Source of the DNA: Escherichia phage EcS1
Sequence record: NC_055721.1
DNA: 64,000 bases
Direction: 5' to 3' (one strand)
Shown: piece after piece, positions 3,438-47,572 of the stretch
Position numbering within the stretch: position 1 is the stretch's first letter
Layout of the letters: each line of letters opens with the position of its first letter
Translations under genes and position numbers: made by a program
The notes under the pieces: model-generated
The model's database searches: none
Seen by the model: only the letters and a program-made list of their open reading frames with translations
Told to the model about the DNA's origin: nothing

Positions 3438-4267
3438 ATGTTCGGACACTGGTATAATTCATCACTGCGTCGCTATATTGTTTTAATGGGTGATTTGTTT
3501 TCCCATGTCCAGGTAGCACGTGTCAGAGCGGATGTAGGCACTAAGTTTATTAAAGTTCCTATTACTTATGCTTCAAAAGAAAAATTTATGTCTCAACTTG
3601 GCAAATGGACTGCTATTCAAAGCGCTCAAGATAAAGCCAAGATTGAAACAGTTCTTCCACGTATGAATCTTCATTTAGTGGACTTGCAATATAACGCACA
3701 ATATAAAACAGCTACCCAAAACAGAACTGCGGCTCAATATCAAGACGGTGACCCAAGAAAATCTGTTTCACAATTCAGTCCTACTCCAGTCAAAATGATT
3801 TTTGAGTTAGGCATTTATACTCGTCACCAAGACGATATGTATCAAATCATAGAACAAATTTTGCCTTATTTCCAACCTCATTTTAATACAACAATAACAG
3901 AACTTTATACAAATGAGATTAAATTCGAGCGTGACATCAGGATTGTATTCCAATCAGCTGCAATGGACGAACAAATAGAAGGTGACCCGATGACAAGACG
4001 TCGTTTGGAATGGTCTATTATGTTCGAAGTGAATGGTTGGCTTTATCCACCAGTTGCATCAATTGAAGGCGAAATCAGAACAGTATATATTGACTTCTTT
4101 GCCAATACTAAAGAGCTTACGCCTGAAGGCATATTCGAATCAGTTGATAGTGAAGTAGTTCCTAGATATGTAGAAGAAGCCGATTGGGACGGAAAATCAG
4201 AACAAACTTATTCGCATGATATTCCTATTCCTGTTGAGCCTGCGCCACCTAGCCCGAGGACTAATAA

Positions 4268-4271
<4 letters not shown>
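3438..4271 (+). CDS. 15: Tail sheath stabilizer / tail completion protein gp15
   Basis: 277 aa, synteny between 14 and 16; AGGAG-type RBS upstream. Confidence 0.8.
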
Positions 4272-6587
<2,316 letters not shown>

Positions 6588-34619: not shown

Positions 34620-34845
34620 TAAATTCGTCCATCAGTTCGTTGAAGGTTTTGTGATATCTTACCATACCATCGATACTGCAAAGCCATAATTCATTCTGAG
34701 CTACACAGTCTTTGAATATTGGATTCGCCGAATTCGAGAATACATGGCTACCTGTTGCTCTTAAAAACTTAATAGGCGTTTGATAATATTCAGTTTCAAG
34801 AGTATCTTTTTGTAGACAATAATTATGAACGTTAAACATTACCAA
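34594..34845 (-). CDS. Hypothetical protein (30.1-like)
   Basis: 83 aa ORF. Confidence 0.45.
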   Translation of the reverse strand: MVMFNVHNYCLQKDTLETEYYQTPIKFLRATGSHVFSNSANPIFKDCVAQNELWLCSIDGMVRYHKTFNELMDEFNEYFSNPQ

Positions 34846-35678
34846 CGGTCCTTATCAAAAGTATAATGACATTTAAAGGGTCCAATTAATGGTTGAGCAA
34901 AGTCATGATCAACTATTTTAGGATGATTATTCATCCATTCAGCTCGGAGTATAGAATCACCTTTACCAACATAAGACTTTCTTGCTTCTTCCATGATACC
35001 CATTCTCAACATGGCATCTTCCATAGAACTCATGATATCCTTTACGGATTTAGAATTAAGTTCTTTAGCTAGATGTTCCCAATCATTAACAGCGTCATAA
35101 GATTTAAGATTAGGAGCAGTACGTTGACCACGTGGCATGTGATACGAAACAACATCAGTTCCTTCAAATACTTTAACTGCAGATTCGATATGTGAACCAA
35201 GATCGTCTACATAGCAAACAACACGATCACCATATTTTTCTTTTACTTTTTCAAGCAGAACATCTTTTGATTCGTTGAAGTCGCAAACCATGATGTCTTT
35301 AAATGCACCTGGGAACAATGCGTTCAAATTGAATTGTCTATTCAAATGAGCGTCAACACTATTGCCTAATGCAGTCACGGCCACAAAGTCGTATTCTTTC
35401 TTAAGTTCATTAACCCATTTCACAGCATCATCATATGGCGCCAAATAACGAATGAAATCTGAGTTGTTATATTTCAAAAGAAGTTTAACGGCAAACTCTT
35501 CATCACATCCGAAGATTTCACCAGGCGGAACAAACTTATCATCCACTAAAAAGTCTAAAATACCTTCAATAGGCAATTGATACTTCTGAGCGAAATAAGG
35601 CAGACCAGATTGCCATTTAACTAAGATGCCATCAACATCTGTAGCAATTACTTTACGTTCTTTTTTCTGAGTCAGCAC
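34839..35678 (-). CDS. HAD-superfamily-like hydrolase (30.2-like position)
   Basis: 279 aa; N-terminal ATDVDGIL resembles HAD motif I (DxDG), later VCYVDDL resembles motif IV. Confidence 0.55.
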   Translation of the reverse strand: MLTQKKERKVIATDVDGILVKWQSGLPYFAQKYQLPIEGILDFLVDDKFVPPGEIFGCDEEFAVKLLLKYNNSDFIRYLAPYDDAVKWVNELKKEYDFVAVTALGNSVDAHLNRQFNLNALFPGAFKDIMVCDFNESKDVLLEKVKEKYGDRVVCYVDDLGSHIESAVKVFEGTDVVSYHMPRGQRTAPNLKSYDAVNDWEHLAKELNSKSVKDIMSSMEDAMLRMGIMEEARKSYVGKGDSILRAEWMNNHPKIVDHDFAQPLIGPFKCHYTFDKDRW

Positions 35679-36218: not shown

Positions 36219-36364
36219 TCTGGGAATTCGATGAAATCAGGAGCGTCAATTTCACAAATCATCATACCTGCATTCACAGTAATATTACCTACTTCAATCA
36301 TAGGATTTGATTGAAGGCTTTGTGATAAGCGTTTTGCATCAGAAACTTGCACGAAAAGAATCAT
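36197..36364 (-). CDS. Small ORF (55 aa), start overlapping upstream stop (TAATG)
   Basis: Hand-translated MILFVQVSDAKRLSQSLQSNPMIEVGNITVNAGMMICEIDAPDFIEFPEWVKVIK; GGGGTGA RBS. Confidence 0.3.
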   Translation of the reverse strand: MILFVQVSDAKRLSQSLQSNPMIEVGNITVNAGMMICEIDAPDFIEFPEWVKVIK

Positions 36365-36813
36365 TATTTCACCCCATAAGAAACGAAAGCTTCGCCAGTC
36401 TTTTTGACCACAATAACTCGTACACCATCAGAAGCATTTCTGAGTTGACTTACCGCAAAGTCTTTAGCTTCTTGTTCAGTAAAAGGACCATTTGGTAGAG
36501 GCAGATTGCTTTTGCTTGTAGGAATAGTGATAGTCCAGAAATCTTGTTCAGTATCAACACGAATAAACTTCTTAGATATTTCATTCTGTAAGAACATACA
36601 CCAAACGTTGTCGAACTCGCCTTCATTTGCTTTGAAGGTGCCTTTATCAGTACGAACTGCAATGATGTTTCCATCCTTATCTAGTTCAGCAACTTCAAAC
36701 TCACCGAAACCTATTAAACGTTTCCATGCAGAAGCAAAGCCTGCACTACGGTCTTCCATGAATTGTTTACCAGCTTCAGTCCATTTGTAAACGATTTTTT
36801 CAGACGTCAACAT
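36364..36813 (-). CDS. Hypothetical protein (149 aa; start reassigned to MLTSEK after GAGGA RBS)
   Basis: ORF; the track N-terminus would run through an intercistronic hairpin, so internal ATG at 36813 preferred. Confidence 0.55.
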   Translation of the reverse strand: MLTSEKIVYKWTEAGKQFMEDRSAGFASAWKRLIGFGEFEVAELDKDGNIIAVRTDKGTFKANEGEFDNVWCMFLQNEISKKFIRVDTEQDFWTITIPTSKSNLPLPNGPFTEQEAKDFAVSQLRNASDGVRVIVVKKTGEAFVSYGVK

Positions 36814-36831
36814 AACAATTTCCTCAGAGTA

Positions 36832-36845
36832 GGGCCCGAAGGCCC
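36832..36845 (-). other. Intercistronic hairpin GGGCC-CGAA-GGCCC followed by GAGGA RBS module
   Basis: Same module as 37797-37813. Confidence 0.6.
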
Positions 36846-36853
36846 ATTTTAGA

Positions 36854-37216
36854 TTAGATAGTGAATTCAGATGAAACGATATCCCATAATGCTTCACGCT
36901 GCTCATCAGTAGTTTTCATACTTAACACATGACGCAACCATAACTTAACTAACATTTTGCGATTAGAACCGTTCCAAGATGGATGAGTACCTAAATCTCG
37001 AGTACGAACATCATCATGAAAACCAACTTTAATTACTGAACCTTTCAAAGAAACATCCAGCGTAATCCCGTTTTCGAAAGCAACATGAACATAGTTATCT
37101 TCCCAATACATGTTGATATCACACACTGTACCGTTTTCATGTTTCCATAAACATACAGTAGAAACATCCCATGCATTAGCTTTAACATATTTACGTTCGA
37201 AGTTTAAGTAGTTCAT
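36854..37216 (-). CDS. Hypothetical protein (about 120 aa; start reassigned downstream of promoter)
   Basis: ORF; promoter -10/-35 lie inside the track N-terminal extension. Confidence 0.5.
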   Translation of the reverse strand: MNYLNFERKYVKANAWDVSTVCLWKHENGTVCDINMYWEDNYVHVAFENGITLDVSLKGSVIKVGFHDDVRTRDLGTHPSWNGSNRKMLVKLWLRHVLSMKTTDEQREALWDIVSSEFTI

Positions 37217-37279: not shown

Positions 37280-37783
37280 TTAGAACGAACTTTTTACTAC
37301 TTGTGGTTCTTTAACGAGTTTGAAACGAGAAATGCCTTTAAAAACAATAACTTCATCATAAGTATTTTCATGAAGCCATGCTGCAGCCCACTCTTCTGCT
37401 TGTTTTTCGCTCAAGTTTTTCGCACGAATCAAGAAATCGGTATCTTCTTCTCTAGCAACAAGACAACCATAGTCTAAATCTTCTAGAACTGGTTCAACTT
37501 CTTTTTCTGGCTCGTAGTCTTTAACTTCTGTGAAGTACTGGTATTCGTTTCCATAAATCCAGCAATCACCATACCCTTGTCTTGAGAACTGTCCAAGTTC
37601 ATCTAAACGATAAAGCTCTTTCTTACCATCAAAGCTGATTTTTAGAACATCAGTGTTATTAACTAGTTCAGTAATCATAAACGGTTTATTGCTGAGATAG
37701 TTTGCAACTGCAGTATTGATAGTAGGCGCTTCTTCAACAAATTCAGCCGCGTCAGCTAGTTTGTACCAGTGGTTTAATTCCAT
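37280..37783 (-). CDS. Hypothetical acidic protein
   Basis: 167 aa ORF with GAGGA RBS and upstream GC hairpin. Confidence 0.6.
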   Translation of the reverse strand: MELNHWYKLADAAEFVEEAPTINTAVANYLSNKPFMITELVNNTDVLKISFDGKKELYRLDELGQFSRQGYGDCWIYGNEYQYFTEVKDYEPEKEVEPVLEDLDYGCLVAREEDTDFLIRAKNLSEKQAEEWAAAWLHENTYDEVIVFKGISRFKLVKEPQVVKSSF

Positions 37784-38475: not shown

Positions 38476-38655
38476 TTATGCTACAGCTCGCGGCTTTCCA
38501 AAACGAGAAGCATCGTCGCGTAACACGGCTCGTGCACGACGCATAATCTTCTCAACTGTCTGATTAATACGCTTGTTCGACCCACGCTTATATTTCGCGC
38601 GTTTAGAGGTACCAACTACTTCTTTAACTGCTTGTTTCTTAGCTTGCTTAGCCAT
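38476..38655 (-). CDS. Small highly basic protein (59 aa, 30.9-like position)
   Basis: Hand-translated MAKQAKKQAVKEVVGTSKRAKYKRGSNKRINQTVEKIMRRARAVLRDDASRFGKPRAVA; stop 5 nt before strong terminator hairpin. Confidence 0.4.
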   Translation of the reverse strand: MAKQAKKQAVKEVVGTSKRAKYKRGSNKRINQTVEKIMRRARAVLRDDASRFGKPRAVA

Positions 38656-38976
38656 TTTATTCTTCCAATCTTGGAGTAAAGTTAGCTCTATGACTTACGG
38701 TTTCCCTGCATAGAGCCGTTTTCTGTTTGGTCATTTCATGGCAGACCTACCAGAAGGTTTCGTTTATTTTACGTCTAGATAACCTACAACTACGACATCA
38801 TACTACTTCTATCTGTTGCACACCGTTAGCTGGCCATAGGCTGGGTCCGGGTCAGATTTCTCTGGGATAGAATATACATCAATGACTGTATAGGCCATGA
38901 GGTCACTCGGATTGTGAATCATTGTCCATCCGGTAACATGCCCTTGCCGTAATATGAACAAGTCCTCAAGGGGTAC

Positions 38977-39225
38977 TTATTTCAAAGTCACGATGAAGTG
39001 ACGGACTGCTTTACGAGCTGCAGAACACAATGGCTTAGCATATTTCAGTTCATCTTGAATAGCCAGTTCAGTAGCCAAAGCTTTCTGAGAAGGATTCAGA
39101 TGTTTGAAATATTCCAGGATGTCGAGAGCTTCAGCTTTAACATCAATGGAAGCACCATAGTTATCATGGCCTGCATTCCAGGATTTACGTTGGATGTCGA
39201 GAATAGATTTGATTAGTTCTTGCAT
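38977..39225 (-). CDS. rIII: rIII-like lysis-inhibition accessory protein (assigned by size and synteny only)
   Basis: 82 aa, same length as T4 rIII, immediately downstream of gene 31. Confidence 0.45.
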   Translation of the reverse strand: MQELIKSILDIQRKSWNAGHDNYGASIDVKAEALDILEYFKHLNPSQKALATELAIQDELKYAKPLCSAARKAVRHFIVTLK

Positions 39226-39338
39226 TATAGAGCCTCAATATGAGGTAAAAATTAGGAGACAATCATCGGTTAACTAAGGTCCGACTGCCATTATCTCCAC
39301 ATAGAAGTGATCCTGTTAATGGTCACCACTTCATAAAT

Positions 39339-39692
39339 TTATTTATACACTACGCCTAACGACTTATAATGCGCAGCTACAAATTTTTGTTTTACTTCTT
39401 TAGGTTGTTTAATACCTAAAGCAACAAGTGGATGAATCACGTTTTTAAACGTTGGGTTACTTGCAAGATAAGGAACCAAATCACCTACTTCAATGAAACC
39501 AGTTGGAACTTCATCGCCAATGGAATGAACTTCCATTACTTCTGGTAATTGACCTTGTGTTTCTTTGCCTAAAAAGATTCCAGATTCAGATGTTTTATCA
39601 TCACCTGCTTGGGACGGTTCAGAGACAAAAATAATGTGCTCACCTAGAGCTTTAATTGGGAGTTCCATTTTATTACCTGTTTGGTAGACCAT
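39339..39692 (-). CDS. 31: Co-chaperonin gp31 (GroES analogue)
   Basis: LPIKALGEHIIFVSEPSQAGDD..HSIGDEVPTGF.EVGDL..HPLVALGIKQPKEVKQKF..HYK matches recalled T4 gp31. Confidence 0.9.
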   Translation of the reverse strand: MVYQTGNKMELPIKALGEHIIFVSEPSQAGDDKTSESGIFLGKETQGQLPEVMEVHSIGDEVPTGFIEVGDLVPYLASNPTFKNVIHPLVALGIKQPKEVKQKFVAAHYKSLGVVYK

Positions 39693-39724
39693 GAGTAAAT
39701 AATATCACTCATGGTCTAAAGCAT

Positions 39725-40048
39725 TTAACCAACAAACTTAACCAGATGTTCCATCTTCATTCCATTAAAGGAAACCAGTTTGTCGATGCTAAAGCCACGC
39801 CATTGTTTGATTTCAGTATCAAATGCTGGAACCATATCTACAGCTTCTTTACGAGGCTTACTAGGATTCACATAGCTTTCATAGATTGCAGGGTCAACCA
39901 GTTTACCAATTACATCTTTATCACGAGAAGCTTTCATTACACGCATGGTGCCATCAGCTTTTTCAAAGACTACTTCAGAAGTACCCATTGCCAGTTTAGT
40001 TTTCAAGACTTCACGCAGAGCTACTTTTTGATCTTCAGTTAATTTCAT
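39725..40048 (-). CDS. Hypothetical protein (31.1-like)
   Basis: 107 aa ORF. Confidence 0.5.
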   Translation of the reverse strand: MKLTEDQKVALREVLKTKLAMGTSEVVFEKADGTMRVMKASRDKDVIGKLVDPAIYESYVNPSKPRKEAVDMVPAFDTEIKQWRGFSIDKLVSFNGMKMEHLVKFVG

Positions 40049-40600
40049 TTATTCGATTCCACAAAAGTTTTCAATTCGATTCCAGTCAAGAGACTTCAAA
40101 TTAGTACGAGAATATTCGATGACTTCAAGACCTGAATCACGTAAGATGTCATCCCAATTATCAGGAGAACGATCATATTTTTCAGCATAAACAACTTTCT
40201 TAATACCTGACTGAGCAATAGCTTTAGAACAATCAGGACAAGGAGAAGCTGTTACGTACATCGTGGCGCCATCAATAGACGAGCCATTACGAGCAGCAAA
40301 CAAAATAGCATTCAATTCAGCATGGATTTCATTACGAGCAGACCAAGAACTATGGGCTACTCGATGTTCTGCTTTAAGACCTACTCGATGATGGCGTTCA
40401 CCTGGAATAAGTTTACCTTTACCTAACCAACCTTGTTCTGCAGCATGGTCACAACAGTTTACACCACCAGATGGAGTGCCATTATAGCCAGTAGAAATGA
40501 TGCGACCATTCTTTTCAATGACCGCACCTACCTTCCAAGAACAACATTTAGATTCTTGAGAAATCAGATATGCAATCTGAAGATAAGTGCTAGATTTCAT
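40049..40600 (-). CDS. cd: dCMP deaminase
   Basis: 183 aa; zinc-binding HAELNAI and PCPDC motifs. Confidence 0.9.
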   Translation of the reverse strand: MKSSTYLQIAYLISQESKCCSWKVGAVIEKNGRIISTGYNGTPSGGVNCCDHAAEQGWLGKGKLIPGERHHRVGLKAEHRVAHSSWSARNEIHAELNAILFAARNGSSIDGATMYVTASPCPDCSKAIAQSGIKKVVYAEKYDRSPDNWDDILRDSGLEVIEYSRTNLKSLDWNRIENFCGIE

Positions 40601-40944
40601 TAAATCACCAAGTAAGTTGAGCGTTTAGTAGAAACCAATTTTAGTCCTTCAATTGGTTCGACAATATTCTTTACAGTACCAATTGTGATGAATTCTGCAT
40701 CTTTAAAACGATTCTTTTTATCGTTAAAGACTGTACCCATGTATTGGTAACCTAATTCTACGCCATGATTGTTTACAGCAATCAATACTGCATCATATTC
40801 TTCATCAGGGACCATTGAGACTGCGTGGTCCATACGCAGTTCGGTTAACACTTCATCGATGCCTTTTTGAGATACTTCACCACGTATACCAATCAAGTTC
40901 GCACGAAGAATTTTATCAATCTTTTCTTTTAGCATATTGATCAA
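40600..40944 (-). CDS. Hypothetical protein downstream of DAHP synthase
   Basis: 114 aa ORF; overlaps DAHP synthase 3-prime end. Confidence 0.5.
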   Translation of the reverse strand: MINMLKEKIDKILRANLIGIRGEVSQKGIDEVLTELRMDHAVSMVPDEEYDAVLIAVNNHGVELGYQYMGTVFNDKKNRFKDAEFITIGTVKNIVEPIEGLKLVSTKRSTYLVI

Positions 40945-41926
40945 TCTCTGTTAGAGTTTTAACTGTTTGTTCCCAGCCGATGCAAGCATCAGTCACTGAA
41001 ACACCATACTTCATGTCACGAGAAATTTTCTGAGAACCTTCGTTCAGATGAGATTCTATCATAAAACCTTTAACTAATTGGAAACCTGCTTTCAATACTT
41101 CTTTAGCTACGCCTGGTTGACGCGTGAAGTCTTTTTCACTGTTCGAGTGTGAGCAGTCAACCATAACTGATTGGTTCACACCTGCGTGATACAGGTCGTC
41201 TAAGACATCAACAATATCGTCTTCATGATAGTTAGGACCCTTATCACCGCCACGTAGAACGATGTGAGTGTTCTTATTGCCTACGGCATGAACGATACCT
41301 ACGTTTCCGTTGTTATCCATACCTAAGTAACGGTGTGGGAACGCAGCAGATTTCATAGCATCAATAGCTACTTGAGCAGAACCATTTGTTCCATTCTTGA
41401 AGCCAACACACATAGGCAGACCTGAAGCGATTTCACGGTGTGTCTGTGATTCAGTCGTACGAGCGCCGATAGCAACCCATGAGAAAATACCACTAAGATA
41501 CTTAATCGTGAATGGGTCAAGCACTTCAGTCGCTAATGGAAGGCCAATATCTAAAAGGTCTAAACATAAACGACGAGCACAATGAAGACCATAGTTCAAG
41601 TCAAATGTGTCGTTCAAATGTGGGTCATTTACATAACCTTTCCAACCTACAGTCGTACGAGGCTTTTCAAAATAAACACGCATAACTAACAATACGTCAG
41701 GCAATTGTTTTTGCAATTCAGCCAGACGTTGGCCATATTCTAAAGCAGCTTTAGGGTCATGAATAGAACATGGACCCACTACAACAAGCTTACGATGGTT
41801 TTCGCCACACATAATGCGATTAACTTCTTCGCGATGTTTTTCTACTTGTTCTTTATGTCCTGCATGAAATGGAAGTTCACGAGCAAGTTCATTAGGCGAA
41901 TACAACTGTTCTACAACCAAATTCAT
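40916..41926 (-). CDS. 3-deoxy-D-arabino-heptulosonate-7-phosphate (DAHP) synthase, class I AroG/AroF/AroH-like
   Basis: 336 aa; collinear with recalled E. coli AroG: LVVVGPCSIHDP, LLVMRVYFEKPRTTVGWKG, NDPH, WVAIGARTTESQTHREIASGL, VGFKNGTNG, IVLRGG, VMVDCSHSNS, GFMIESHLNEG, SVTDACIGWE. Confidence 0.9.
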   Translation of the reverse strand: MNLVVEQLYSPNELARELPFHAGHKEQVEKHREEVNRIMCGENHRKLVVVGPCSIHDPKAALEYGQRLAELQKQLPDVLLVMRVYFEKPRTTVGWKGYVNDPHLNDTFDLNYGLHCARRLCLDLLDIGLPLATEVLDPFTIKYLSGIFSWVAIGARTTESQTHREIASGLPMCVGFKNGTNGSAQVAIDAMKSAAFPHRYLGMDNNGNVGIVHAVGNKNTHIVLRGGDKGPNYHEDDIVDVLDDLYHAGVNQSVMVDCSHSNSEKDFTRQPGVAKEVLKAGFQLVKGFMIESHLNEGSQKISRDMKYGVSVTDACIGWEQTVKTLTEIDQYAKRKD

Positions 41927-42198
41927 TAAATTTCCCCAAAGATATTATGCATTTCTACAAGCCCGTCACGAGCATGTAATAATTGTGTGTGTTTAGACTT
42001 ATGACCTTGCTGAACAGAAATAATTACAGCACTAGGCACTAATGGGTCCTGGCGAAGAACTACTTCTGCACCAGGGATACGATTCGCAATTTCTTGAGCA
42101 AAGTTCTGAACTTTAGTCATGAACTCTTCACGAGTAATAGGAGTATCTGAAATCATTTTAACCCCAGTAGAACGAATAGCGTACAAAGAGCTTTTCAC
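41926..42198 (-). CDS. Hypothetical protein upstream of DAHP synthase (stop overlaps its start)
   Basis: 90 aa ORF. Confidence 0.45.
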   Translation of the reverse strand: MKSSLYAIRSTGVKMISDTPITREEFMTKVQNFAQEIANRIPGAEVVLRQDPLVPSAVIISVQQGHKSKHTQLLHARDGLVEMHNIFGEI

Positions 42199-42619
42199 TT
42201 AAATCAAGTTCAAGATCAAAGTCTACTTTAAAGGAGGAATAAGTAACATCTAATTTAAAGTTAGTATCTTTAAGCAGAATATTCAGTACACCTGCAACTT
42301 CACCATGAATTTGTGCCTGAGTTCCAGGCTCATTAATGTTTTCATAGAGATGATTAGAAATAACCTGTTTAACAACCAGTTCTAAGACTTCAGTGTAACG
42401 TGGGAACTGAGAAGACTTATCTTCATCCATAAAGCTATTAATGAATTCCAGAGCTTGGTTTAAATTCACATGACCTGAATAAAAGCGTTCACGTGTTGTA
42501 CGGTTAATAGCTACAATATAAGCTTTATCAACTGATGCTGTTTCATCAATATTAAAAGCAAATTTATTTTGCTTTTCTACAAGTGATTTAGCACCATATA
42601 AGGTTTCAAAGGTAATCAT
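42158..42619 (-). CDS. Hypothetical protein
   Basis: 153 aa ORF. Confidence 0.5.
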   Translation of the reverse strand: MITFETLYGAKSLVEKQNKFAFNIDETASVDKAYIVAINRTTRERFYSGHVNLNQALEFINSFMDEDKSSQFPRYTEVLELVVKQVISNHLYENINEPGTQAQIHGEVAGVLNILLKDTNFKLDVTYSSFKVDFDLELDLSEKLFVRYSFYWG

Positions 42620-42819
42620 AGGTAATTTTCCTCTACGTATTTGAATACGCTTTTGTGTGTAAAGTGTCCACCATCAACAGTCTCTTCAGTATCGTAATCA
42701 CGAATATCTAAAGCAACACCGTCTTCATTATGATGGACAACAAAGATGAAACATTTACGTTCTTCGATTTCTTCAATCAAATCGTAGAGCTCACTAATAT
42801 CTTCTAAATAGTCACACAT
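42616..42819 (-). CDS. Hypothetical acidic small protein
   Basis: 67 aa ORF. Confidence 0.45.
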   Translation of the reverse strand: MCDYLEDISELYDLIEEIEERKCFIFVVHHNEDGVALDIRDYDTEETVDGGHFTHKSVFKYVEENYL

Positions 42820-43718
42820 TAAAAGTCACCATGAGCCACTTGCCAACATTCAACACCGATACGACGCCACATTTCTACTACCTGTGCACGGTCATCGACA
42901 GCCAGAACTACATCATAATCTTGGACAATATCGTTCCAGAAGATTTCTTCTTTCACAACGTCATCTTTACGTGGGTCGCCTTGCTTGCGCTGGAAATGCT
43001 TTTCAGTCTGAATCATGTTTTCGTTTAGCCAATTGATAGTAGCCACACGATGTTTCAGAGGCTCATCTTTGTTACCTGATTCACGTCCAGAGACGGTAAG
43101 GATTTTAAACCCTTGTTGTTGCAGCAATTTAAGAAGCAGTACAACCATCTCACGAGGAGTATCGTCACAGAGCTTATCAAGGTCGTAAGGAGAGCGGTGT
43201 TCGTTATCGGCTAATGTTCCATCAAGGTCAAAGATAACCGCTTGAGGGCGCCCTTCAGGATAATCAGCGGATACATATTTCATTGGAACAGACATCTTAG
43301 CGTACATAGAACGTAAGACATCAATTGGAACAGCCTTTTCACCACGATACTGGTTACGTTTCAGAAGCTCGGTCCATGGAATATCAAAACGTTCGATTTC
43401 AAGCTTAGTTTCATGTTTAACAGAGAATTCTTGCCACACTTTCAGAGTAGTAGGGTTCAAGTTCGTATCGGCAATGATTACGCCTTTACATCCATCAAGA
43501 GCTAACAATGTTTGAGCTGAAGAGAATTGTACTTTAGAGACAGCTTTCTCTTTTTGCTTTGTATATTTGTATTGGTTACGATATTCGAGCCCAAACAACT
43601 TTTCACGGAAGTCATCACGTGACAGGATATAGAAGCCAGGGTTCTTAGCAACATATTCATTAGCCCAAGTAGTTTTACCTGAACCTGGAGCACCTTGAGT
43701 CAAAATAATCTTTTTCAT
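42819..43718 (-). CDS. pseT: Polynucleotide 5-prime kinase / 3-prime phosphatase
   Basis: 299 aa; MKKIILTQGAPGSGKTTWA P-loop, AVIFDLDGTLA phosphatase motif, QGDPRKDDVVKEEIFW, VVEMWRRIGVECWQVA match recalled T4 Pnk. Confidence 0.96.
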   Translation of the reverse strand: MKKIILTQGAPGSGKTTWANEYVAKNPGFYILSRDDFREKLFGLEYRNQYKYTKQKEKAVSKVQFSSAQTLLALDGCKGVIIADTNLNPTTLKVWQEFSVKHETKLEIERFDIPWTELLKRNQYRGEKAVPIDVLRSMYAKMSVPMKYVSADYPEGRPQAVIFDLDGTLADNEHRSPYDLDKLCDDTPREMVVLLLKLLQQQGFKILTVSGRESGNKDEPLKHRVATINWLNENMIQTEKHFQRKQGDPRKDDVVKEEIFWNDIVQDYDVVLAVDDRAQVVEMWRRIGVECWQVAHGDF

Positions 43719-43927
43719 TCTTTCACCAATGATTTAATAAAGTCTTGGAGTTCTTTAGAAGCACGACCCCAGTTTTCATGATATCTTAAAGTATGCGCTT
43801 CTAAAATAGAAGCCATTTTATGAGAATCACATGATTGCTGTCGTTCTAGGTGCCGGCCATAAATTGTTGCTCTGACTTCTGATTCATAAATCAGCCCACG
43901 AAGTTGCTCTAGATGTTCAAGAGTCAT
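43715..43927 (-). CDS. Hypothetical small protein
   Basis: 70 aa ORF. Confidence 0.45.
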   Translation of the reverse strand: MTLEHLEQLRGLIYESEVRATIYGRHLERQQSCDSHKMASILEAHTLRYHENWGRASKELQDFIKSLVKE

Positions 43928-44099
43928 TAGTCACCTGTAGCTCTACAAAAGTCATTAAGGCGGTTCTAGCCGAGCTTGCCATGCCGTATAGCTCTTGAAC
44001 ACGTGAGCTACGCATATGCAAACCTAAATTCAAAGCGCGTTGTGCCTGTTCATAAGCTTCAAACAGCCCTTTCCATACGTTATATTGTTCAAGAGTCAT
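43917..44099 (-). CDS. Hypothetical small protein
   Basis: 60 aa ORF. Confidence 0.4.
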   Translation of the reverse strand: MTLEQYNVWKGLFEAYEQAQRALNLGLHMRSSRVQELYGMASSARTALMTFVELQVTNDS

Positions 44100-44335
44100 A
44101 GTTTGTCAATCTCATTGAATATATTAAGCAAAGTTTTGTTAAGTTCGTATTCACTTAAATCGATTTCTTCAATTCCGTCTTTACGGCTAATAGACCCAGA
44201 CCGAATACGATTAGTGGTTATCTGATTAACCCCGCCTGTGCATTTTGCACTTTCACATAAAGAGTACATCTTTGCTTTTAATTGAGTTTTTAGGTCCGGC
44301 GAATTAATCATATGTACAAAATCAAGACCAGTCAT
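44096..44335 (-). CDS. Hypothetical small protein
   Basis: 79 aa ORF. Confidence 0.45.
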   Translation of the reverse strand: MTGLDFVHMINSPDLKTQLKAKMYSLCESAKCTGGVNQITTNRIRSGSISRKDGIEEIDLSEYELNKTLLNIFNEIDKL

Positions 44336-44497
44336 AACTTAATTCCTTATACAAAGCTTCGCGAGCAGCCTTAAGTTCTTTGGCTGATTCATATGCACAT
44401 TTATCGTCGATTAATGACATTGCAACTTGTGTCTGACGTTGACCATGTAGTTTGGCTTTGAGTTCATAAGCTGCAAACAAATCTTTCAATTTATCAT

Positions 44498-44995
44498 TCA
44501 TACGTCAAGTTCCTTATACAAGTCTTCACGAGCTTCTTTCAGAATTTTACCTGTTTCGCGTAAGAATGGTTCTACTTTTTCACCAGTAACGCGTCCAGAA
44601 TTAACTAATGATAAATGACGACCATGACGTAAAGCAGCTTGTTCAAAGGCATGAACAATACTACGCTTACGGTCTCGTTCAAGGACTTCTTCTTCGAAGA
44701 TAGGATAGTCATTAACAGAAGACATAATGGAGTACCAATCGCGTAAAGGAATCTGAGTTTCTTCGTTCAGTTCAAATGTACGATCTACTGTATCACTATT
44801 AGGCGAATAGTATTCTACACGATGGACCATATCGCCACCGTCTGTGAGATGCCAGATATAACAAAATGTTGCTTTCTTTTCAAGAGGTGTACGAATACAA
44901 GAACCAAGCTGCATAAGCTTACGAAGCTCAGCATTTTTGATTTTGGTAAGACGTTCAGGTGAAGAGACAAAACTGTTATAACGTGGAGCAGCCAT
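44498..44995 (-). CDS. Hypothetical protein
   Basis: 165 aa ORF with upstream GC hairpin and GAGGA RBS. Confidence 0.5.
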   Translation of the reverse strand: MAAPRYNSFVSSPERLTKIKNAELRKLMQLGSCIRTPLEKKATFCYIWHLTDGGDMVHRVEYYSPNSDTVDRTFELNEETQIPLRDWYSIMSSVNDYPIFEEEVLERDRKRSIVHAFEQAALRHGRHLSLVNSGRVTGEKVEPFLRETGKILKEAREDLYKELDV

Positions 44996-45024
44996 AATAA
45001 TATCCTCAAATTTAATTATCCCAT

Positions 45025-45040
45025 AGAGCCCGAAGGCTCT
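45025..45040 (-). other. Intercistronic hairpin AGAGCC-CGAA-GGCTCT upstream of ORF 44498..44995
   Basis: Read directly. Confidence 0.55.
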
Positions 45041-45197
45041 AAGATTTTAAAATCAGTTTAATAGCTTTATATGCAAAGATTAATATCATACCAAATGCTA
45101 TTAAGCCAGTCATACCACTAGCACAACCAACGCTGCAACGCATGCAAGCAGAGCAACAACCAATCCTGCACAAAACAATGTAGCGCCTAAAGTCATT

Positions 45198-45494
45198 TTA
45201 CTTTTCACACTTCACTTCCTTCAAAGGAGCTCGATAATAACAAATGACACCGTTAGCATCTTTTACATAACGATTAACGTCATTCAACCATACTCTAAAT
45301 TCCTGTGATTCATTATATGGCATTCCTACGAAAGCAACACCATCAATCACTTTAACTTGCCATTGACCTGTCCAAGGTTTAATCGGGTCAGGCCAACTTG
45401 GGTCAACACGTTGCACAGGTTGTAGCTCAGGGACACTCTGGGAGCATCCAACCAAAAAGATAGATAAACATATGGCTAGAGATTTAAGTTTCAT
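45198..45494 (-). CDS. o-spanin (Rz1-like outer-membrane lipoprotein; T4 pseT.2 equivalent)
   Basis: Signal peptide with lipobox LVGC (MKLKSLAICLSIFLVGCSQS); directly downstream of i-spanin. Confidence 0.7.
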   Translation of the reverse strand: MKLKSLAICLSIFLVGCSQSVPELQPVQRVDPSWPDPIKPWTGQWQVKVIDGVAFVGMPYNESQEFRVWLNDVNRYVKDANGVICYYRAPLKEVKCEK

Positions 45495-45847
45495 CTGGTC
45501 GCCTCCTGCATATCCTGAGCGAACTTATTGAAGCTGTCATTGATTTGTTTCTCAACCAATTTAGGCTTCTTAGCTACTGTATCACTTCTTTTTGCGTCTG
45601 TAAACATCTTAGCATCAGACGTATCTCTTGCTAGACGATTTGCCTTACGTTCATCATCTAAAGCACTAAGACGAGTGAATCCATCTTTCAAATCTGTTAT
45701 CTGCTTATCTTGTTCTTTAACAGTTTGTTCAACATGAGTTAAAGATTCTTTTAAGTTATCGATACGGGCTTCTTGAATCTTTACAAAAGCAAAGACACTA
45801 AGAACACCTAGTATCAACAACATGTATCCACCATTTATAGTAGGCAT
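45491..45847 (-). CDS. i-spanin (Rz-like; T4 pseT.3 equivalent)
   Basis: N-terminal TM helix GYMLLILGVLSVFAFV then charged coiled-coil-like region; overlaps o-spanin start. Confidence 0.65.
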   Translation of the reverse strand: MPTINGGYMLLILGVLSVFAFVKIQEARIDNLKESLTHVEQTVKEQDKQITDLKDGFTRLSALDDERKANRLARDTSDAKMFTDAKRSDTVAKKPKLVEKQINDSFNKFAQDMQEATR

Positions 45848-46341
45848 AATTTAACGATTGTCTCAAAGATATCGTCTTGAGTCATATTGTTGATAAGAAT
45901 ATGATGGGGTGAATCAGAAGCTGAAATCTTAAAGCAAGTTTCAACCATTGAAGCCATTTCGTCAGCAGTTAAACGAGAATGCTGGATTCCAAGACGATGA
46001 TTACCATAGATTGGGTCAACAATAATGTAACATTTGTTGCCACTCAGATGGACATTAGGCTGGCTGATGTTAATGAACACTTCAGCGCCATATTTACCCA
46101 ACTGGTTTTCAAGGAAGCTCTTCATTTCTTCTACTGCGTCAGGCATAGCATCACGACGAGCTTCAGTGACTTTGTTGTTGTATTCTTTTTGCTTTTTACG
46201 TTTAGAAAGATTACGTGCCATGGCAATACGAAGATCGGTGATGTAACCAATAGTCTTAGAACCTTTAAAGATACTGATTCCATCATGACGATCACCGTAT
46301 TGAGCCATAACCATTTCATTTGTAATAAGTTGCATATTCAT
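45835..46341 (-). CDS. Alc-like protein (assigned by size and synteny; start moved to ATG after GAGGA RBS)
   Basis: 168 aa from MNMQLIT; lies between rnlA and spanins where T4 has alc (167 aa); sequence itself not verified. Confidence 0.4.
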   Translation of the reverse strand: MNMQLITNEMVMAQYGDRHDGISIFKGSKTIGYITDLRIAMARNLSKRKKQKEYNNKVTEARRDAMPDAVEEMKSFLENQLGKYGAEVFINISQPNVHLSGNKCYIIVDPIYGNHRLGIQHSRLTADEMASMVETCFKISASDSPHHILINNMTQDDIFETIVKLCLL

Positions 46342-46370
46342 TTTAATATCCTCATTTTGTTGGTAGGAGA

Positions 46371-46399
46371 ATCTTATCACAACAAAATGAGGATGTAAA
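46371..46399 (-). promoter_or_regulatory. Sigma70-like early promoter (TTTACA-17-TAAGAT) inside 15-bp inverted repeat upstream of alc-like gene
   Basis: IR arms 46348-46362 and 46380-46394; downstream arm contains the GAGGA RBS. Confidence 0.5.
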
Positions 46400-47572
46400 C
46401 TACTCTTGTTCGATTACAATTTCTTTCTTATATTCGTCTGGAACGAAGAACTTGTGATTCTTGTTAAAAGCTTCGTTAAGCTGTGGAATTAACTTATCTA
46501 GGTCTAAACCACCTGTGAACGCTTTCATCAGAATTGGGAACAGATAAGAACGGTCTGCATCTTTAAAGATTGTTTGAGCAGAGATAGCGAAGTCTTTACG
46601 GTCACGACCAGCTAGTTGCTTATAAGTTGTTTGAACTAAGTCTAATGCATGACGCAAGAACTCTAAATGAATAGTTTCAAACTTATCAATCTTAGTGATA
46701 GCCCATTCATCGCCTGCGAACATAGAACGAAGGTCATCAGAACCACCAGACACGACAGATTCGAAGAGAGCTTCGTTTTTAGTGATGGAATCTTTAGTAC
46801 GATGCAAAGCAACATACCAATCAGTTTTGAGCTTAAAGTTCAAACCGTTTTCCATTACAAAAACATAACCTTCTACACCTTCTTTGGCGCGAATGCCAGG
46901 CACAAATCGTTCATCGGCAGGAACATTAAATGCTTCTACCAAATGAGGACGAAGCATTGCATCTTTAAACAATTCTTCATATGGAACATATTCACCAGTC
47001 TTATTTTCACGAACATTCAGAAGAATCAGGTCACGTTTACTATAAGCCAGAACGATACGGTTATCTGGTGCAACGTATTCCATGTTACAAGTGAAGCCAT
47101 CTTTAGTAAGTTGAGTCACACGTTTCAAGAATTTTTCATAACGTGGACCATTGATAACTTGTAGTGCTGCATAAGCTTGTTCAGAAGAAATAGAAGCCTT
47201 AGACTTCAAGAACAGTTGGTCGTTATCTACAAAGCTAGAGATTAGAGAACCATCAGCCTTATCCATCATCAATTTGATTTTAGTAAGGTCCAAGTTCATG
47301 GTAAATGGAGTTTCATCTAAGTTAAAGAATTTTTCCATCGGACGAGCTGCAATACGAGTAGGCTTACCATCGACCATTTCAAACATAATGCCGCGGCACT
47401 CTAGAGCGTCAGGCAGAAGCCAATCAGAGTAAGATGCATAGTTATAACTGAAGATACGATACTCACCACCAAACGGCGTCTGGTAGTCACGGAAATAGAA
47501 TTTAGACTGGTCTTTTGGGTCAGTCAATTTCATCAGGTTTTTGTACAAATCATGTTCTTGTTTAGTAATCAT
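46400..47572 (-). CDS. rnlA: RNA ligase 1
   Basis: 390 aa; YRIFSYNYASYSDWLLPDALECRGIMFEM, EKFFNL, KADGSL, RIVLAY, ILLNVRENKTGEY match recalled T4 Rnl1. Confidence 0.95.
   Translation of the reverse strand: MITKQEHDLYKNLMKLTDPKDQSKFYFRDYQTPFGGEYRIFSYNYASYSDWLLPDALECRGIMFEMVDGKPTRIAARPMEKFFNLDETPFTMNLDLTKIKLMMDKADGSLISSFVDNDQLFLKSKASISSEQAYAALQVINGPRYEKFLKRVTQLTKDGFTCNMEYVAPDNRIVLAYSKRDLILLNVRENKTGEYVPYEELFKDAMLRPHLVEAFNVPADERFVPGIRAKEGVEGYVFVMENGLNFKLKTDWYVALHRTKDSITKNEALFESVVSGGSDDLRSMFAGDEWAITKIDKFETIHLEFLRHALDLVQTTYKQLAGRDRKDFAISAQTIFKDADRSYLFPILMKAFTGGLDLDKLIPQLNEAFNKNHKFFVPDEYKKEIVIEQE

What the first reader, a model, noticed from the sequence alone, without database searches (positions are those of the whole stretch)
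40600..42198. Full-length AroG-like DAHP synthase inside the early cd-pseT module
The 336-aa minus-strand ORF at 40916..41926 is collinear with E. coli AroG as I recall it across the whole protein (PCSIHD, RVYFEKPRTTVGWKG, GARTTESQ.HRE, KNGT, DCSH, ESHL, DACIGWE). This enzyme catalyses the first committed step of the shikimate pathway (PEP + erythrose-4-phosphate), which is not a T4 function as far as I know. It is translationally coupled to an upstream 90-aa ORF (stop/start overlap at 41926) and followed by an overlapping 114-aa ORF, both unrecognised. This suggests a small operon that could rewire host aromatic or sugar-acid metabolism during infection.
Basis: partly seen in the sequence, partly recalled or inferred. 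Interest (0 to 1): 0.7.

Follow-up and report, generated by a model that had tools for sequence, protein, structure and literature searches.

The report
Phage-borne DAHP synthase, likely deregulated
This T4-like phage carries an intact copy of the enzyme that opens the bacterial pathway to aromatic amino acids; the gene is already annotated in this phage and in about 200 relatives, but its feedback-control site looks rewired, so it may ignore the cell's normal "enough" signal.

Summary
Window 40916..41926 (-) encodes a 336-aa type I-alpha DAHP synthase with every catalytic residue intact. It is closest to E. coli AroF, not AroG.

It is not new. The window is Escherichia phage EcS1, and GenBank already names this protein. 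A PHROG family exists (phrog_5045). About 200 phage records, nearly all T4-like, carry a homologue, and in every locus I opened it sits between pseT and cd.

The two "unrecognised" flanking ORFs are homologues of T4 cd.2 and cd.1. They also occur in T4 and T2, which lack the enzyme. So there is no dedicated operon: the gene is inserted at the cd.2|cd.1 junction of a tightly packed run of T4-type early genes.

One point was not found in the papers searched. The phage enzymes form one clade (100/100 bootstraps) that branches outside the sampled bacterial AroF group. All lack about 9 N-terminal residues and carry fixed changes at known feedback-resistance positions: AroG P150->I, Q151->K (the yeast Aro4 Q166K position) and S180->P.

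My best reading is an early-expressed auxiliary metabolic gene that pushes carbon into chorismate regardless of Tyr/Phe/Trp levels. Activity and insensitivity are inferred, not measured.

The parts
40916..41926 (-). CDS for a 336-aa type I-alpha (AroF-like) 3-deoxy-7-phosphoheptulonate (DAHP) synthase. It is 100% identical to the annotated Escherichia phage EcS1 protein.
   Evidence: AlphaFold model pLDDT 93, with TM 0.94-0.97 to solved DAH7PS structures.
41924..41937 (-). Translation-initiation region: Shine-Dalgarno GGGG (41937..41934), then a TAATG stop/start overlap (cd.2 stop 41928..41926, enzyme ATG 41926..41924).
   Evidence: Sequence read.
41768..41770 (-). Codon for Cys53, a metal ligand (AroG Cys61). 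The other ligands are His260 (41147..41149), Glu291 (41054..41056) and Asp313 (40988..40990).
   Evidence: Invariant in 25/25 phage and 102/102 bacterial sequences.
41414..41506 (-). Segment with the remodelled allosteric-site residues: Ile141 (41504..41506, AroG Pro150), Lys142 (41501..41503, AroG Gln151 / AroF Gln152 / Aro4 Gln166) and Pro171 (41414..41416, AroG Ser180). Tyr200 (41327..41329, AroG Phe209) lies further downstream.
   Evidence: Feedback-resistant mutations at these positions are documented in PMC11843938 and PMC7513737.
41926..42156 (-). Upstream neighbour, a T4 cd.2 homologue (76 aa from ATG 42156; the maximal ORF from GTG 42198 is 90 aa). DUF7320 / phrog_1504.
   Evidence: 942 phage records; annotated cd.2 in ime09.
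40600..40935 (-). Downstream neighbour, a T4/T2 cd.1 homologue (111 aa from ATG 40935; 114 aa from TTG 40944). phrog_2063. It overlaps the enzyme's 3' end by 20 nt.
   Evidence: 754 phage records; annotated cd.1 in T2 and ime09.
40049..40600 (-). cd, dCMP deaminase. Its start overlaps the cd.1 stop (TAATG at 40600).
42158..42819 (-). Two small conserved T4-type ORFs between cd.2 and pseT: 42158..42619 (153 aa, with a C-terminal DUF7355/phrog_1695 match) and 42616..42819 (67 aa, phrog_2360).
42819..43718 (-). pseT, polynucleotide 5'-kinase/3'-phosphatase. It forms the upstream boundary of the module.
   Evidence: HAD_PNKP E=5.8e-54, AAA_33.

Best explanation
The gene encodes a catalytically competent type I-alpha DAHP synthase (PEP + erythrose-4-phosphate -> DAHP). 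It belongs to a phage-specific clade that branches beside, not within, the sampled bacterial Tyr-sensitive AroF group.

The gene appears to have been captured once by an ancestor of several T4-like genera. It was inserted at the cd.2|cd.1 junction of the early nucleotide-metabolism region and has since been fully adapted to phage codon usage.

It is probably transcribed with its neighbours as part of the prereplicative pseT-cd gene run and translated by coupling to cd.2.

The N-terminal arm is about 9 residues shorter than in bacterial enzymes. Three residues at known feedback-resistance positions are replaced in every clade member. The enzyme is therefore most likely insensitive to Tyr, Phe and Trp. 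It would hold open the flux-controlling first step of the shikimate pathway after host transcription is shut off, whatever the aromatic amino acid levels. The host's remaining, largely unregulated pathway enzymes would then convert DAHP to chorismate for aromatic amino acids and chorismate-derived cofactors.

Shown here: identity, intact active site, fold, clade structure, genomic slot and residue changes. Inferred: enzyme activity, timing of expression, feedback insensitivity and physiological benefit.
For: Identity:
- PF00793 E=3.7e-80.
- TIGR00034 450.8 bits (cut-off 173) and NF009395 466.7 bits (cut-off 343).
- 52% identity to E. coli AroF, and 6AGM E=1e-108.
- Model pLDDT 93, TM 0.94-0.97 and rmsd 1.2-1.5 A to solved I-alpha enzymes.

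Active site: the metal ligands, seven PEP ligands and the KPRT motif are invariant in 25/25 phage sequences that share only 54-74% identity with EcS1.

Clade and history:
- The phage clade is monophyletic in 100/100 bootstraps and is sister to all sampled AroF-type sequences.
- It occupies the same pseT...cd slot in Winklervirus, Mosigvirus, Marfavirus, Bragavirus and a metagenomic T4-like contig.
- GC3 is 0.31, like neighbouring phage genes (0.23-0.36) and unlike E. coli aroF (0.50).

Deregulation signature:
- All 25 core clade members have AroG P150->I, Q151->K, S180->P and F209->Y. The two outliers have PKPY and IRPY at these four positions. All lack the residues matching AroF N7, N8 and V9. 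By contrast, 100/102 of the nearest bacterial sequences keep P, Q, S and F.
- Only 10 positions in the whole protein are clade-diagnostic. Five of them fall among 14 inhibitor-pocket positions (P=1.3e-5). Three fall among 7 literature-documented feedback-resistance positions (P=6e-4).
- Documented feedback-resistant mutants include AroG P150L and S180F, AroF Q152I and N8K (PMC11843938), and yeast Aro4 Q166K (PMC7513737). Aro4 Q166 aligns with phage K142.
- The N-terminal extension and beta-hairpin form the I-alpha allosteric machinery (PMC4735112).

Accessory status: Mosigvirus moha has flanks 96% identical to JS09 but lacks the cassette.
Against: - There is no biochemical or genetic evidence for any phage DAHP synthase in the papers I could search.
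- The Tyr-type Gly (G202), D137, P138 and the beta-hairpin are all retained.
- The altered pocket residues are themselves strongly conserved in phages (11 of 14 near-invariant against a 40% background). That fits a pocket that still does something, not one simply abandoned.
- In a wider sample of 150 family representatives, Q151 (83/150) and S180 (93/150) are not universal. Lineages of unknown regulation carry other residues. So the substitutions alone do not prove loss of regulation.
- The 14-position pocket list came from my recollection of the AroG-Phe structure, and I had already seen two of the changes when I compiled it.
- Expression timing is inferred from T4. The promoter scan here was at chance level (22 found, 23.3 expected).
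Confidence: 0.6

Rival explanations
1. An ordinary feedback-regulated AroF-type enzyme. The phage simply adds more Tyr-sensitive DAHP synthase, and the residue differences are neutral drift compatible with inhibitor binding.
For: The closest solved relative is Tyr-sensitive AroF. The Tyr-type Gly at the specificity position, D137, P138 and the hairpin are retained. Several records annotate the gene as 'Tyr-sensitive'.
Against: Q->K at this position abolishes Tyr inhibition in yeast Aro4 (PMC7513737). AroF Q152I, AroG P150L and S180F, and AroF N8K are all feedback-resistant, and the phage clade carries changes or a deletion at all four positions in every member. The changes are fixed rather than drifting, and they are concentrated in the pocket.
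Confidence: 0.17
2. Re-tuned regulation. The remodelled but conserved pocket (Val135, Phe139, Ile141, Lys142, Ile166, Pro171, Tyr200) binds a different effector, so the phage enzyme answers to a signal other than aromatic amino acids. Candidates include an anionic metabolite such as chorismate or prephenate, a nucleotide, or a protein partner.
For: 11 of 14 pocket positions are near-invariant across phage genera against a 40% background (P=0.004). The new residues are a consistent set that adds a cationic Lys and a Tyr hydroxyl. The hairpin is retained in the model.
Against: The same elements form the tight-dimer interface (PMC4735112), so conservation can be explained by structural need alone. 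No ligand is indicated by any result here. Loss of the N-terminal arm removes part of the site.
Confidence: 0.15
3. Metabolic diversion rather than supply. The value to the phage is consumption of PEP and/or erythrose-4-phosphate (perturbing the PTS, glycolysis or the pentose-phosphate pathway) or provision of a non-amino-acid chorismate product. An example is pABA/folate for the neighbouring thymidylate synthase, DHFR and dCMP-modifying enzymes.
For: The gene sits in the nucleotide-metabolism region, next to cd and upstream of nrdAB, td and frd. A deregulated enzyme would run even when aromatic amino acids are plentiful, which is when extra amino-acid synthesis is least needed (inference).
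Against: No other shikimate, chorismate or folate-synthesis gene was found in the 64-kb window. The location may reflect only a permissive insertion site. Nothing here is directly supportive.
Confidence: 0.06
4. A decaying passenger gene or pseudo-enzyme with no role in infection.
For: The cassette is dispensable. Mosigvirus moha lacks it, and mar005P1 shows the same 63-64% partial coverage of the region; T2 lacks it at this locus.
Against: All catalytic residues are invariant across 27 sequences down to 54% identity. The reading frame is intact, codon usage is fully adapted, and the gene is retained in at least five genera in the same slot.
Confidence: 0.02

Closest known systems
E. coli AroF (Tyr-sensitive DAHP synthase, type I-alpha; PDB 6AGL/6AGM)
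   Same: About 52% identity over the full length. Same fold, same metal, PEP and E4P ligands, same Gly at the Tyr/Phe specificity position, and the beta-hairpin insertion is retained.
   Different: About 9 residues shorter at the N-terminus (AroF N7, N8 and V9 absent). P151->I, Q152->K, S181->P and F210->Y. Two loops are 3 residues shorter. It branches outside the sampled bacterial AroF clade.
Engineered or selected feedback-resistant DAHP synthases (yeast Aro4 Q166K; E. coli AroG P150L and S180F; AroF Q152I and N8K)
   Same: The phage clade naturally carries Lys at the Aro4-Q166 position and non-wild-type residues at AroG 150 and 180. It lacks the AroF N8 region.
   Different: The substitutions are natural, combined and fixed across a clade. 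Ile and Pro are not the residues used in the laboratory mutants (Leu and Phe). Insensitivity is untested.
Annotated DAHP synthases of other T4-like phages (phrog_5045; e.g. Serratia phage CHI14, Escherichia phage JS09, Klebsiella phages Marfa and KLB31, Proteus phage Pm5461)
   Same: Same clade, 60-74% identity, same pseT...cd slot and same IKPY signature. KLB31's copy was noted as an auxiliary metabolic gene in PMC11845039.
   Different: EcS1 keeps cd.1 between the enzyme and cd, as Winklervirus does. JS09 and Marfa have the enzyme abutting cd.
   Same: Same family and catalytic motifs, 48% identity.
   Different: Fails the AroG equivalog cut-off (385 against 568 bits). Gly rather than Ser at AroG position 211. 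It is further from the phage enzyme than AroF in the tree.

Membership tests
Type I-alpha DAHP synthase (AroF/G/H family; TIGR00034, PF00793) | Full-length match to the curated family model above its cut-off | tested here: met
   TIGR00034 450.8 bits (cut-off 173.2), NF009395 466.7 bits (cut-off 343), PF00793 269 bits (cut-off 25.5).
Type I-alpha DAHP synthase (AroF/G/H family; TIGR00034, PF00793) | Metal ligands Cys/His/Glu/Asp, PEP ligands and the KPRT motif | tested here: met
   C53, H260, E291, D313, R83, K88, G154, A155, R156, K177, R225 and K88-P89-R90-T91 are all present and invariant in 25/25 phage homologues.
Type I-alpha DAHP synthase (AroF/G/H family; TIGR00034, PF00793) | (beta/alpha)8 barrel with an N-terminal extension and an internal two-strand beta-hairpin | tested here: met
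   Model pLDDT 93. TM 0.94-0.97 and rmsd 1.2-1.5 A to 4HSO, 1GG1 and 8E0X. Hairpin strands at 198-203 and 209-214. The N-terminal extension is present but about 9 residues shorter.
Type I-alpha DAHP synthase (AroF/G/H family; TIGR00034, PF00793) | Catalysis of PEP + E4P -> DAHP | not testable with these tools
   Requires an enzyme assay or complementation of an aroFGH mutant.
Feedback-inhibited I-alpha isozymes (AroF, AroG, AroH, Aro4, NmeDAH7PS) | Conserved Gln (AroG 151) and Ser (AroG 180), plus the N-terminal arm (AroG D6/D7, AroF N8), at positions where mutation gives feedback resistance | tested here: not met
   The phage has K142 and P171, and the arm residues are absent. AroF, AroG, AroH and Aro4 all have Q and S, and Nme DAH7PS shows the same in the alignment. 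Caveat: Q and S are not universal in the wider family.
Feedback-inhibited I-alpha isozymes (AroF, AroG, AroH, Aro4, NmeDAH7PS) | Measured inhibition by Phe, Tyr or Trp | not testable with these tools
   Requires kinetics with effectors.
AroG (Phe-sensitive isozyme) | Score above the AroG equivalog cut-off, and Ser at the Phe/Tyr discriminating position (AroG S211) | tested here: not met
   NF006723 385.2 bits against a cut-off of 568. Gly202 at that position.
AroF (Tyr-sensitive isozyme) | Groups within the bacterial AroF clade, with Gly at the discriminating position | tested here: inconclusive
   Gly202 is present and AroF is the best solved match. However, the phage clade is sister to, not nested within, the sampled AroF-type sequences.
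phrog_5045 (phage phospho-2-dehydro-3-deoxyheptonate aldolase) | Full-length profile match | tested here: met
   E=7e-163, residues 4-334 on profile positions 11-339 of 341.
   cd.2 homologues are in 942 phage records and cd.1 homologues in 754, including T4 and T2, against 211 records with the enzyme. JS09 and Marfa have the enzyme without cd.1.

The most novel reading that the evidence does not exclude
The T4-like phage DAHP synthase clade is not merely desensitised but re-wired. Its strongly conserved, remodelled former Tyr pocket (Ile141, Lys142, Pro171, Tyr200, with the N-terminal arm removed) would serve as a new regulatory site for a different metabolite or partner. The phage would then gain its own control over entry into the shikimate pathway during infection.

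A weaker and more probable version (about 0.55) is that the clade is a natural feedback-resistant enzyme. That would give phages, and metabolic engineers, a ready-made deregulated DAHP synthase.
Probability: 0.15. Interest if true: 0.6.

Novelty: already known. Interest (0 to 1): 0.33.

Why it matters
As a gene call it adds nothing. The protein is annotated in EcS1 and is a catalogued phage auxiliary gene.

The interesting question is what the phage gains from it. DAHP synthase is the flux-controlling step of aromatic biosynthesis and the main step under end-product inhibition. One deregulated copy would therefore be enough to open the whole host pathway.

If the predicted insensitivity holds, this would be a clear example outside cyanophages of a phage carrying a regulation-stripped host enzyme. 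It would also supply a natural template for feedback-resistant DAHP synthases. Closely related phage pairs with and without the gene (JS09 and moha) already exist for direct fitness and metabolomic tests.

Tried and rejected
- **Dedicated operon with the flanks:** rejected. The flanks are T4 cd.2 and cd.1, present in phages without the enzyme.
- **AroG orthology:** rejected.
- **Promoter/terminator scan of 38500..46500:** at chance level (22 promoter-like sites against 23.3 expected; 3 terminator-like against 4.5). It defines no transcription unit. Hand searches for MotA-box or late-promoter motifs found nothing convincing directly upstream of the gene.
- **Rfam scan of the whole window:** no hits.
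- **'Acinetobacter phage MD-2021a' hits:** rejected as phage evidence. Their neighbours (cobS, cobT, clpA, fadH) show they are bacterial contigs.
- **Literature:** They returned only passing mentions of the phage gene (PMC11845039, PMC8022965) and no biochemistry. Hartmann 2003 and Cross 2013 are not held, so the AroG-Phe pocket list rests on my recollection of Shumilin et al. 2002.
- **First bootstrap attempt with Biopython:** timed out. It was redone with a numpy distance routine.
- **Wider family survey:** it weakened, but did not remove, the argument that Q151 and S180 are obligatory.
Full report

Yes.

- Pfam DAHP_synth_1 matches residues 36-324 with E=3.7e-80.
- NCBIfam TIGR00034 (aroFGH equivalog) scores 450.8 bits against a cut-off of 173.
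- NF009395 scores 466.7 bits against a cut-off of 343.
- PHROGs has a dedicated family, phrog_5045 'phospho-2-dehydro-3-deoxyheptonate aldolase', matched at E=7e-163.

The sequence shows the stop/start overlap TAATG at 41928..41924, preceded by GGGG at 41937..41934. An in-frame TAA lies seven codons upstream of the ATG with no alternative start between them. The protein therefore cannot be longer at its N-terminus.

**2. What the window is, and how common the gene is**

The protein is 100% identical to 'phospho-2-dehydro-3-deoxyheptonate aldolase [Escherichia phage EcS1]' on a 175,437-bp contig. EcS1 is the type of genus Kagamiyamavirus, Tevenvirinae. The gene is therefore already annotated in this very genome.

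tblastn against 50,697 phage records finds it in 211.

- 183 records are at 60-80% identity. They include Mosigvirus of E. coli and Shigella, Winklervirus of Serratia, Erwinia and Kosakonia, Klebsiella phages such as Marfa, and the Edwardsiella PEi phages.
- Proteus phages (Bragavirus) are at about 58-60%.
- A few low-identity hits are not T4-like. The 'Acinetobacter phage MD-2021a' records are plainly bacterial contigs.

I found two papers that mention the phage gene in passing. KLB31's copy is described as an amino-acid auxiliary metabolic gene (PMC11845039). phiC120's copy is noted as a domain (PMC8022965). Ten full-text searches returned no enzymology or genetics.

**3. Context**

The window has the standard layout of the T4 early region: alt, gene 30 ligase, 30.8, rIII, 31, 31.1, cd, then pseT, alc, rnlA, nrdB, nrdA, td, frd, 32, 59 and rnh.

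- *Upstream ORF.* It is a homologue of T4 cd.2 (DUF7320/phrog_1504). tblastn finds it in 942 phage records, including T4-type phages, and it is annotated cd.2 in ime09. Its likely start is ATG 42156 (76 aa), not GTG 42198.
- *Downstream ORF.* It is a homologue of cd.1 (phrog_2063). It occurs in 754 records and is annotated cd.1 in T2 and ime09. Its likely start is ATG 40935 (111 aa).
- *Insertion point.* In T2 the order is pseT, cd.5, cd.3, cd.2, cd.1, cd, with cd.2 and cd.1 overlapping. The EcS1 enzyme therefore sits exactly at the cd.2|cd.1 junction.
- *Same slot elsewhere.* The gene occupies the same pseT...cd slot in CHI14, JS09, Marfa, Pm5461 and a metagenomic T4-like contig. The immediate neighbours differ, however. 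JS09 and Marfa have no cd.1 between the enzyme and cd.
- *Dispensability.* Within Mosigvirus, phage moha has flanks 96% identical to JS09 but lacks the ~1.1-kb cassette, and cd.2 abuts cd.

The gene is thus a dispensable accessory insertion into a conserved, tightly packed gene run. It is not part of a dedicated three-gene operon. No other shikimate or chorismate gene is present in the window.

**4. The enzyme itself**

The best solved relative is E. coli Tyr-sensitive AroF (6AGM, E=1e-108), ahead of Neisseria DAH7PS and AroG. The AroG and AroH isozyme models both fail their cut-offs.

I aligned 25 phage sequences with 102 bacterial sequences: 99 close relatives plus E. coli AroF, AroG and AroH. 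The following are invariant in all of them:

- the four metal ligands (AroG C61, H268, E302, D326);
- seven PEP ligands;
- the KPRT motif.

An AlphaFold model built on a 28-sequence alignment has pLDDT 93. It superposes on solved I-alpha enzymes with TM 0.94-0.97 and rmsd 1.2-1.5 A. The regulatory beta-hairpin is retained.

GC3 of the gene (0.31) matches neighbouring phage genes (0.23-0.36) and not E. coli aroF (0.50). A neighbour-joining tree puts all 27 phage-type sequences in one clade in 100/100 bootstraps. That clade is sister to all sampled AroF-type gammaproteobacterial sequences and is not nested among enterobacterial AroF.

The simplest history is one old capture followed by descent, with some loss, within T4-like phages.

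**5. The regulatory site**

Here the phage enzymes differ systematically from their bacterial relatives.

- *Shorter N-terminus.* All 25 core clade members have 48-52 residues before the metal Cys. E. coli AroG has 60, and the 100 bacterial-type sequences have 58 or more, mostly 59-62. The residues aligned with AroF N7, N8 and V9 (AroG D6, D7, L8) are therefore missing.
- *Fixed substitutions.* All core members carry Ile, Lys, Pro and Tyr at AroG positions 150, 151, 180 and 209. By contrast, 100/102 of the nearest bacterial sequences have Pro, Gln, Ser and Phe. The two apparent exceptions, P0025 (PKPY) and P0027 (IRPY), proved to be phage-type sequences. P0027 sits in the same pseT-DAHPS-cd slot, and P0025 lies on a contig carrying a T4-family gene.
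- *Concentration in the pocket.* Only ten positions in the whole protein are conserved in both groups yet different between them. Five fall in my 14-position list of inhibitor-pocket residues (hypergeometric P=1.3e-5). Three fall among seven literature-documented feedback-resistance positions (P=6e-4).
- *Documented mutants.* The documented feedback-resistant variants are AroG L76V, D146N, P150L, L175 and S180F, and AroF P148L, Q152I and N8K (review PMC11843938). Yeast Aro4 Q166K is also feedback-resistant (PMC7513737).
- *The Aro4 equivalence.* I confirmed the Aro4 sequence against PDB 1HFB. Q166 aligns with phage K142, S195 with P171, and the Tyr/Phe-discriminating G226 with G202.
- *Structural role.* In I-alpha enzymes the N-terminal extension and the hairpin form the allosteric machinery and part of the tight-dimer interface (PMC4735112).

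**6. Caveats on that inference**

- The pocket list comes from my memory of the AroG-Phe complex (Shumilin et al. 2002), and I compiled it after I had seen two of the changes.
- A wider sample of 150 representatives of 50%-identity clusters shows that Gln151 (83/150) and Ser180 (93/150) are common but not universal. Pro at position 180 occurs in 26 of them. The regulation of those lineages is unknown.
- The altered residues are themselves highly conserved among phages (11 of 14 near-invariant against a 40% background). That could reflect a dimer-interface role or a new ligand rather than simple loss.
- No assay exists.

**7. Mechanism proposed**

*Shown:* an intact, conserved, phage-adapted type I-alpha DAHP synthase at the cd.2|cd.1 junction, translationally coupled to cd.2.

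*Inferred from knowledge of T4:* expression with the prereplicative pseT-cd run.

*Inferred from residue-level comparison:* loss of Tyr/Phe/Trp feedback.

*Inferred from pathway logic:* DAHP synthase is the flux-controlling step and the main step under end-product inhibition, and the E. coli isozyme genes are repressed by TyrR and TrpR. One unregulated copy made after host shut-off would therefore keep carbon flowing to chorismate through long-lived host enzymes. It would supply aromatic amino acids and possibly chorismate-derived cofactors.

I put about 0.9 on 'active DAHP synthase' and about 0.55-0.6 on 'feedback-insensitive'.

**8. Comparison and novelty**

The protein works like, and is a member of, type I-alpha DAHP synthases. 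It is not an AroG orthologue and sits beside rather than inside AroF. It resembles laboratory feedback-resistant mutants at the sequence level.

As an entity it is already known: it is annotated in EcS1, catalogued as phrog_5045, present in about 200 genomes, and mentioned as an auxiliary metabolic gene. The feedback-resistance-like signature of the clade was not found in the papers I could search. It is directly testable.

**9. Verdict**

Novelty is low for the gene itself. Interest is moderate for the predicted deregulation.

Noticed in passing
L015 (Escherichia phage moha MN850590.1) versus L002 (JS09): Presence/absence polymorphism within Mosigvirus. moha, and probably vB_Eco_mar005P1 LR027383.1 (same partial coverage, not opened), have flanks 96% identical to JS09 but lack the ~1.1-kb DAHP synthase cassette. 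In moha, cd.2 abuts cd directly. This is a ready-made natural comparison pair.
   Followed up: partly
L008 and L011 (CAKLQF020000009.1, CAKLQH020000043.1): Records labelled 'Acinetobacter phage MD-2021a' in the phage collection carry aroF next to cobS, cobT, clpA, clpS and fadH. They look like bacterial chromosomal contigs and are not evidence of phage carriage.
   Followed up: partly
window 42158..42619 (-): In this 153-aa ORF only the C-terminal ~82 aa match DUF7355/phrog_1695. The N-terminal ~70 aa match nothing, so the gene may be a fusion or an extension.
   Followed up: no
window 39725 (-) and 39347 (-): A good MotA-box middle-promoter-like site (AATGCTTTAGACCATGAGTGATATTAT) lies just upstream of gene 31 (39692). 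A T4 late-promoter motif TATAAATA at 39347 lies upstream of the rIII-like ORF at 38977..39225.
   Followed up: no
L009 (Aeromonas phage HJ05, 79 kb; CDS 3899..5062): A 387-aa 'hypothetical protein' in a 79-kb phage (much smaller than T4-like genomes) is a DAHP synthase (36% identity) with all catalytic residues. It has Ala, His, Pro and Val at AroG positions 150, 151, 180 and 209. This may be a second, independent phage acquisition that also lacks the canonical regulatory residues.
   Followed up: partly
L013 / L014 (metagenomic contigs carrying P0025): A divergent member of the phage clade (PKPY signature) lies in a different context, not between pseT and cd. Its neighbours are a 394-aa ORF with a faint Zeta-toxin hit and a DUF2828/DUF7788 protein.
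   Followed up: no
P0121 and others: Several family representatives are much longer than a single DAHP synthase (for example P0121 at 799 aa with two matched stretches, and others of 600-730 aa). These may be tandem or fused DAHP synthases, or gene-calling fusions.
   Followed up: no
window 44498..44995 (-), 34839..35678 (-), 36364..36906 (-), 37280..37783 (-): Four ORFs of 165-279 aa in the early region have no Pfam match at E<=1e-5.
   Followed up: no
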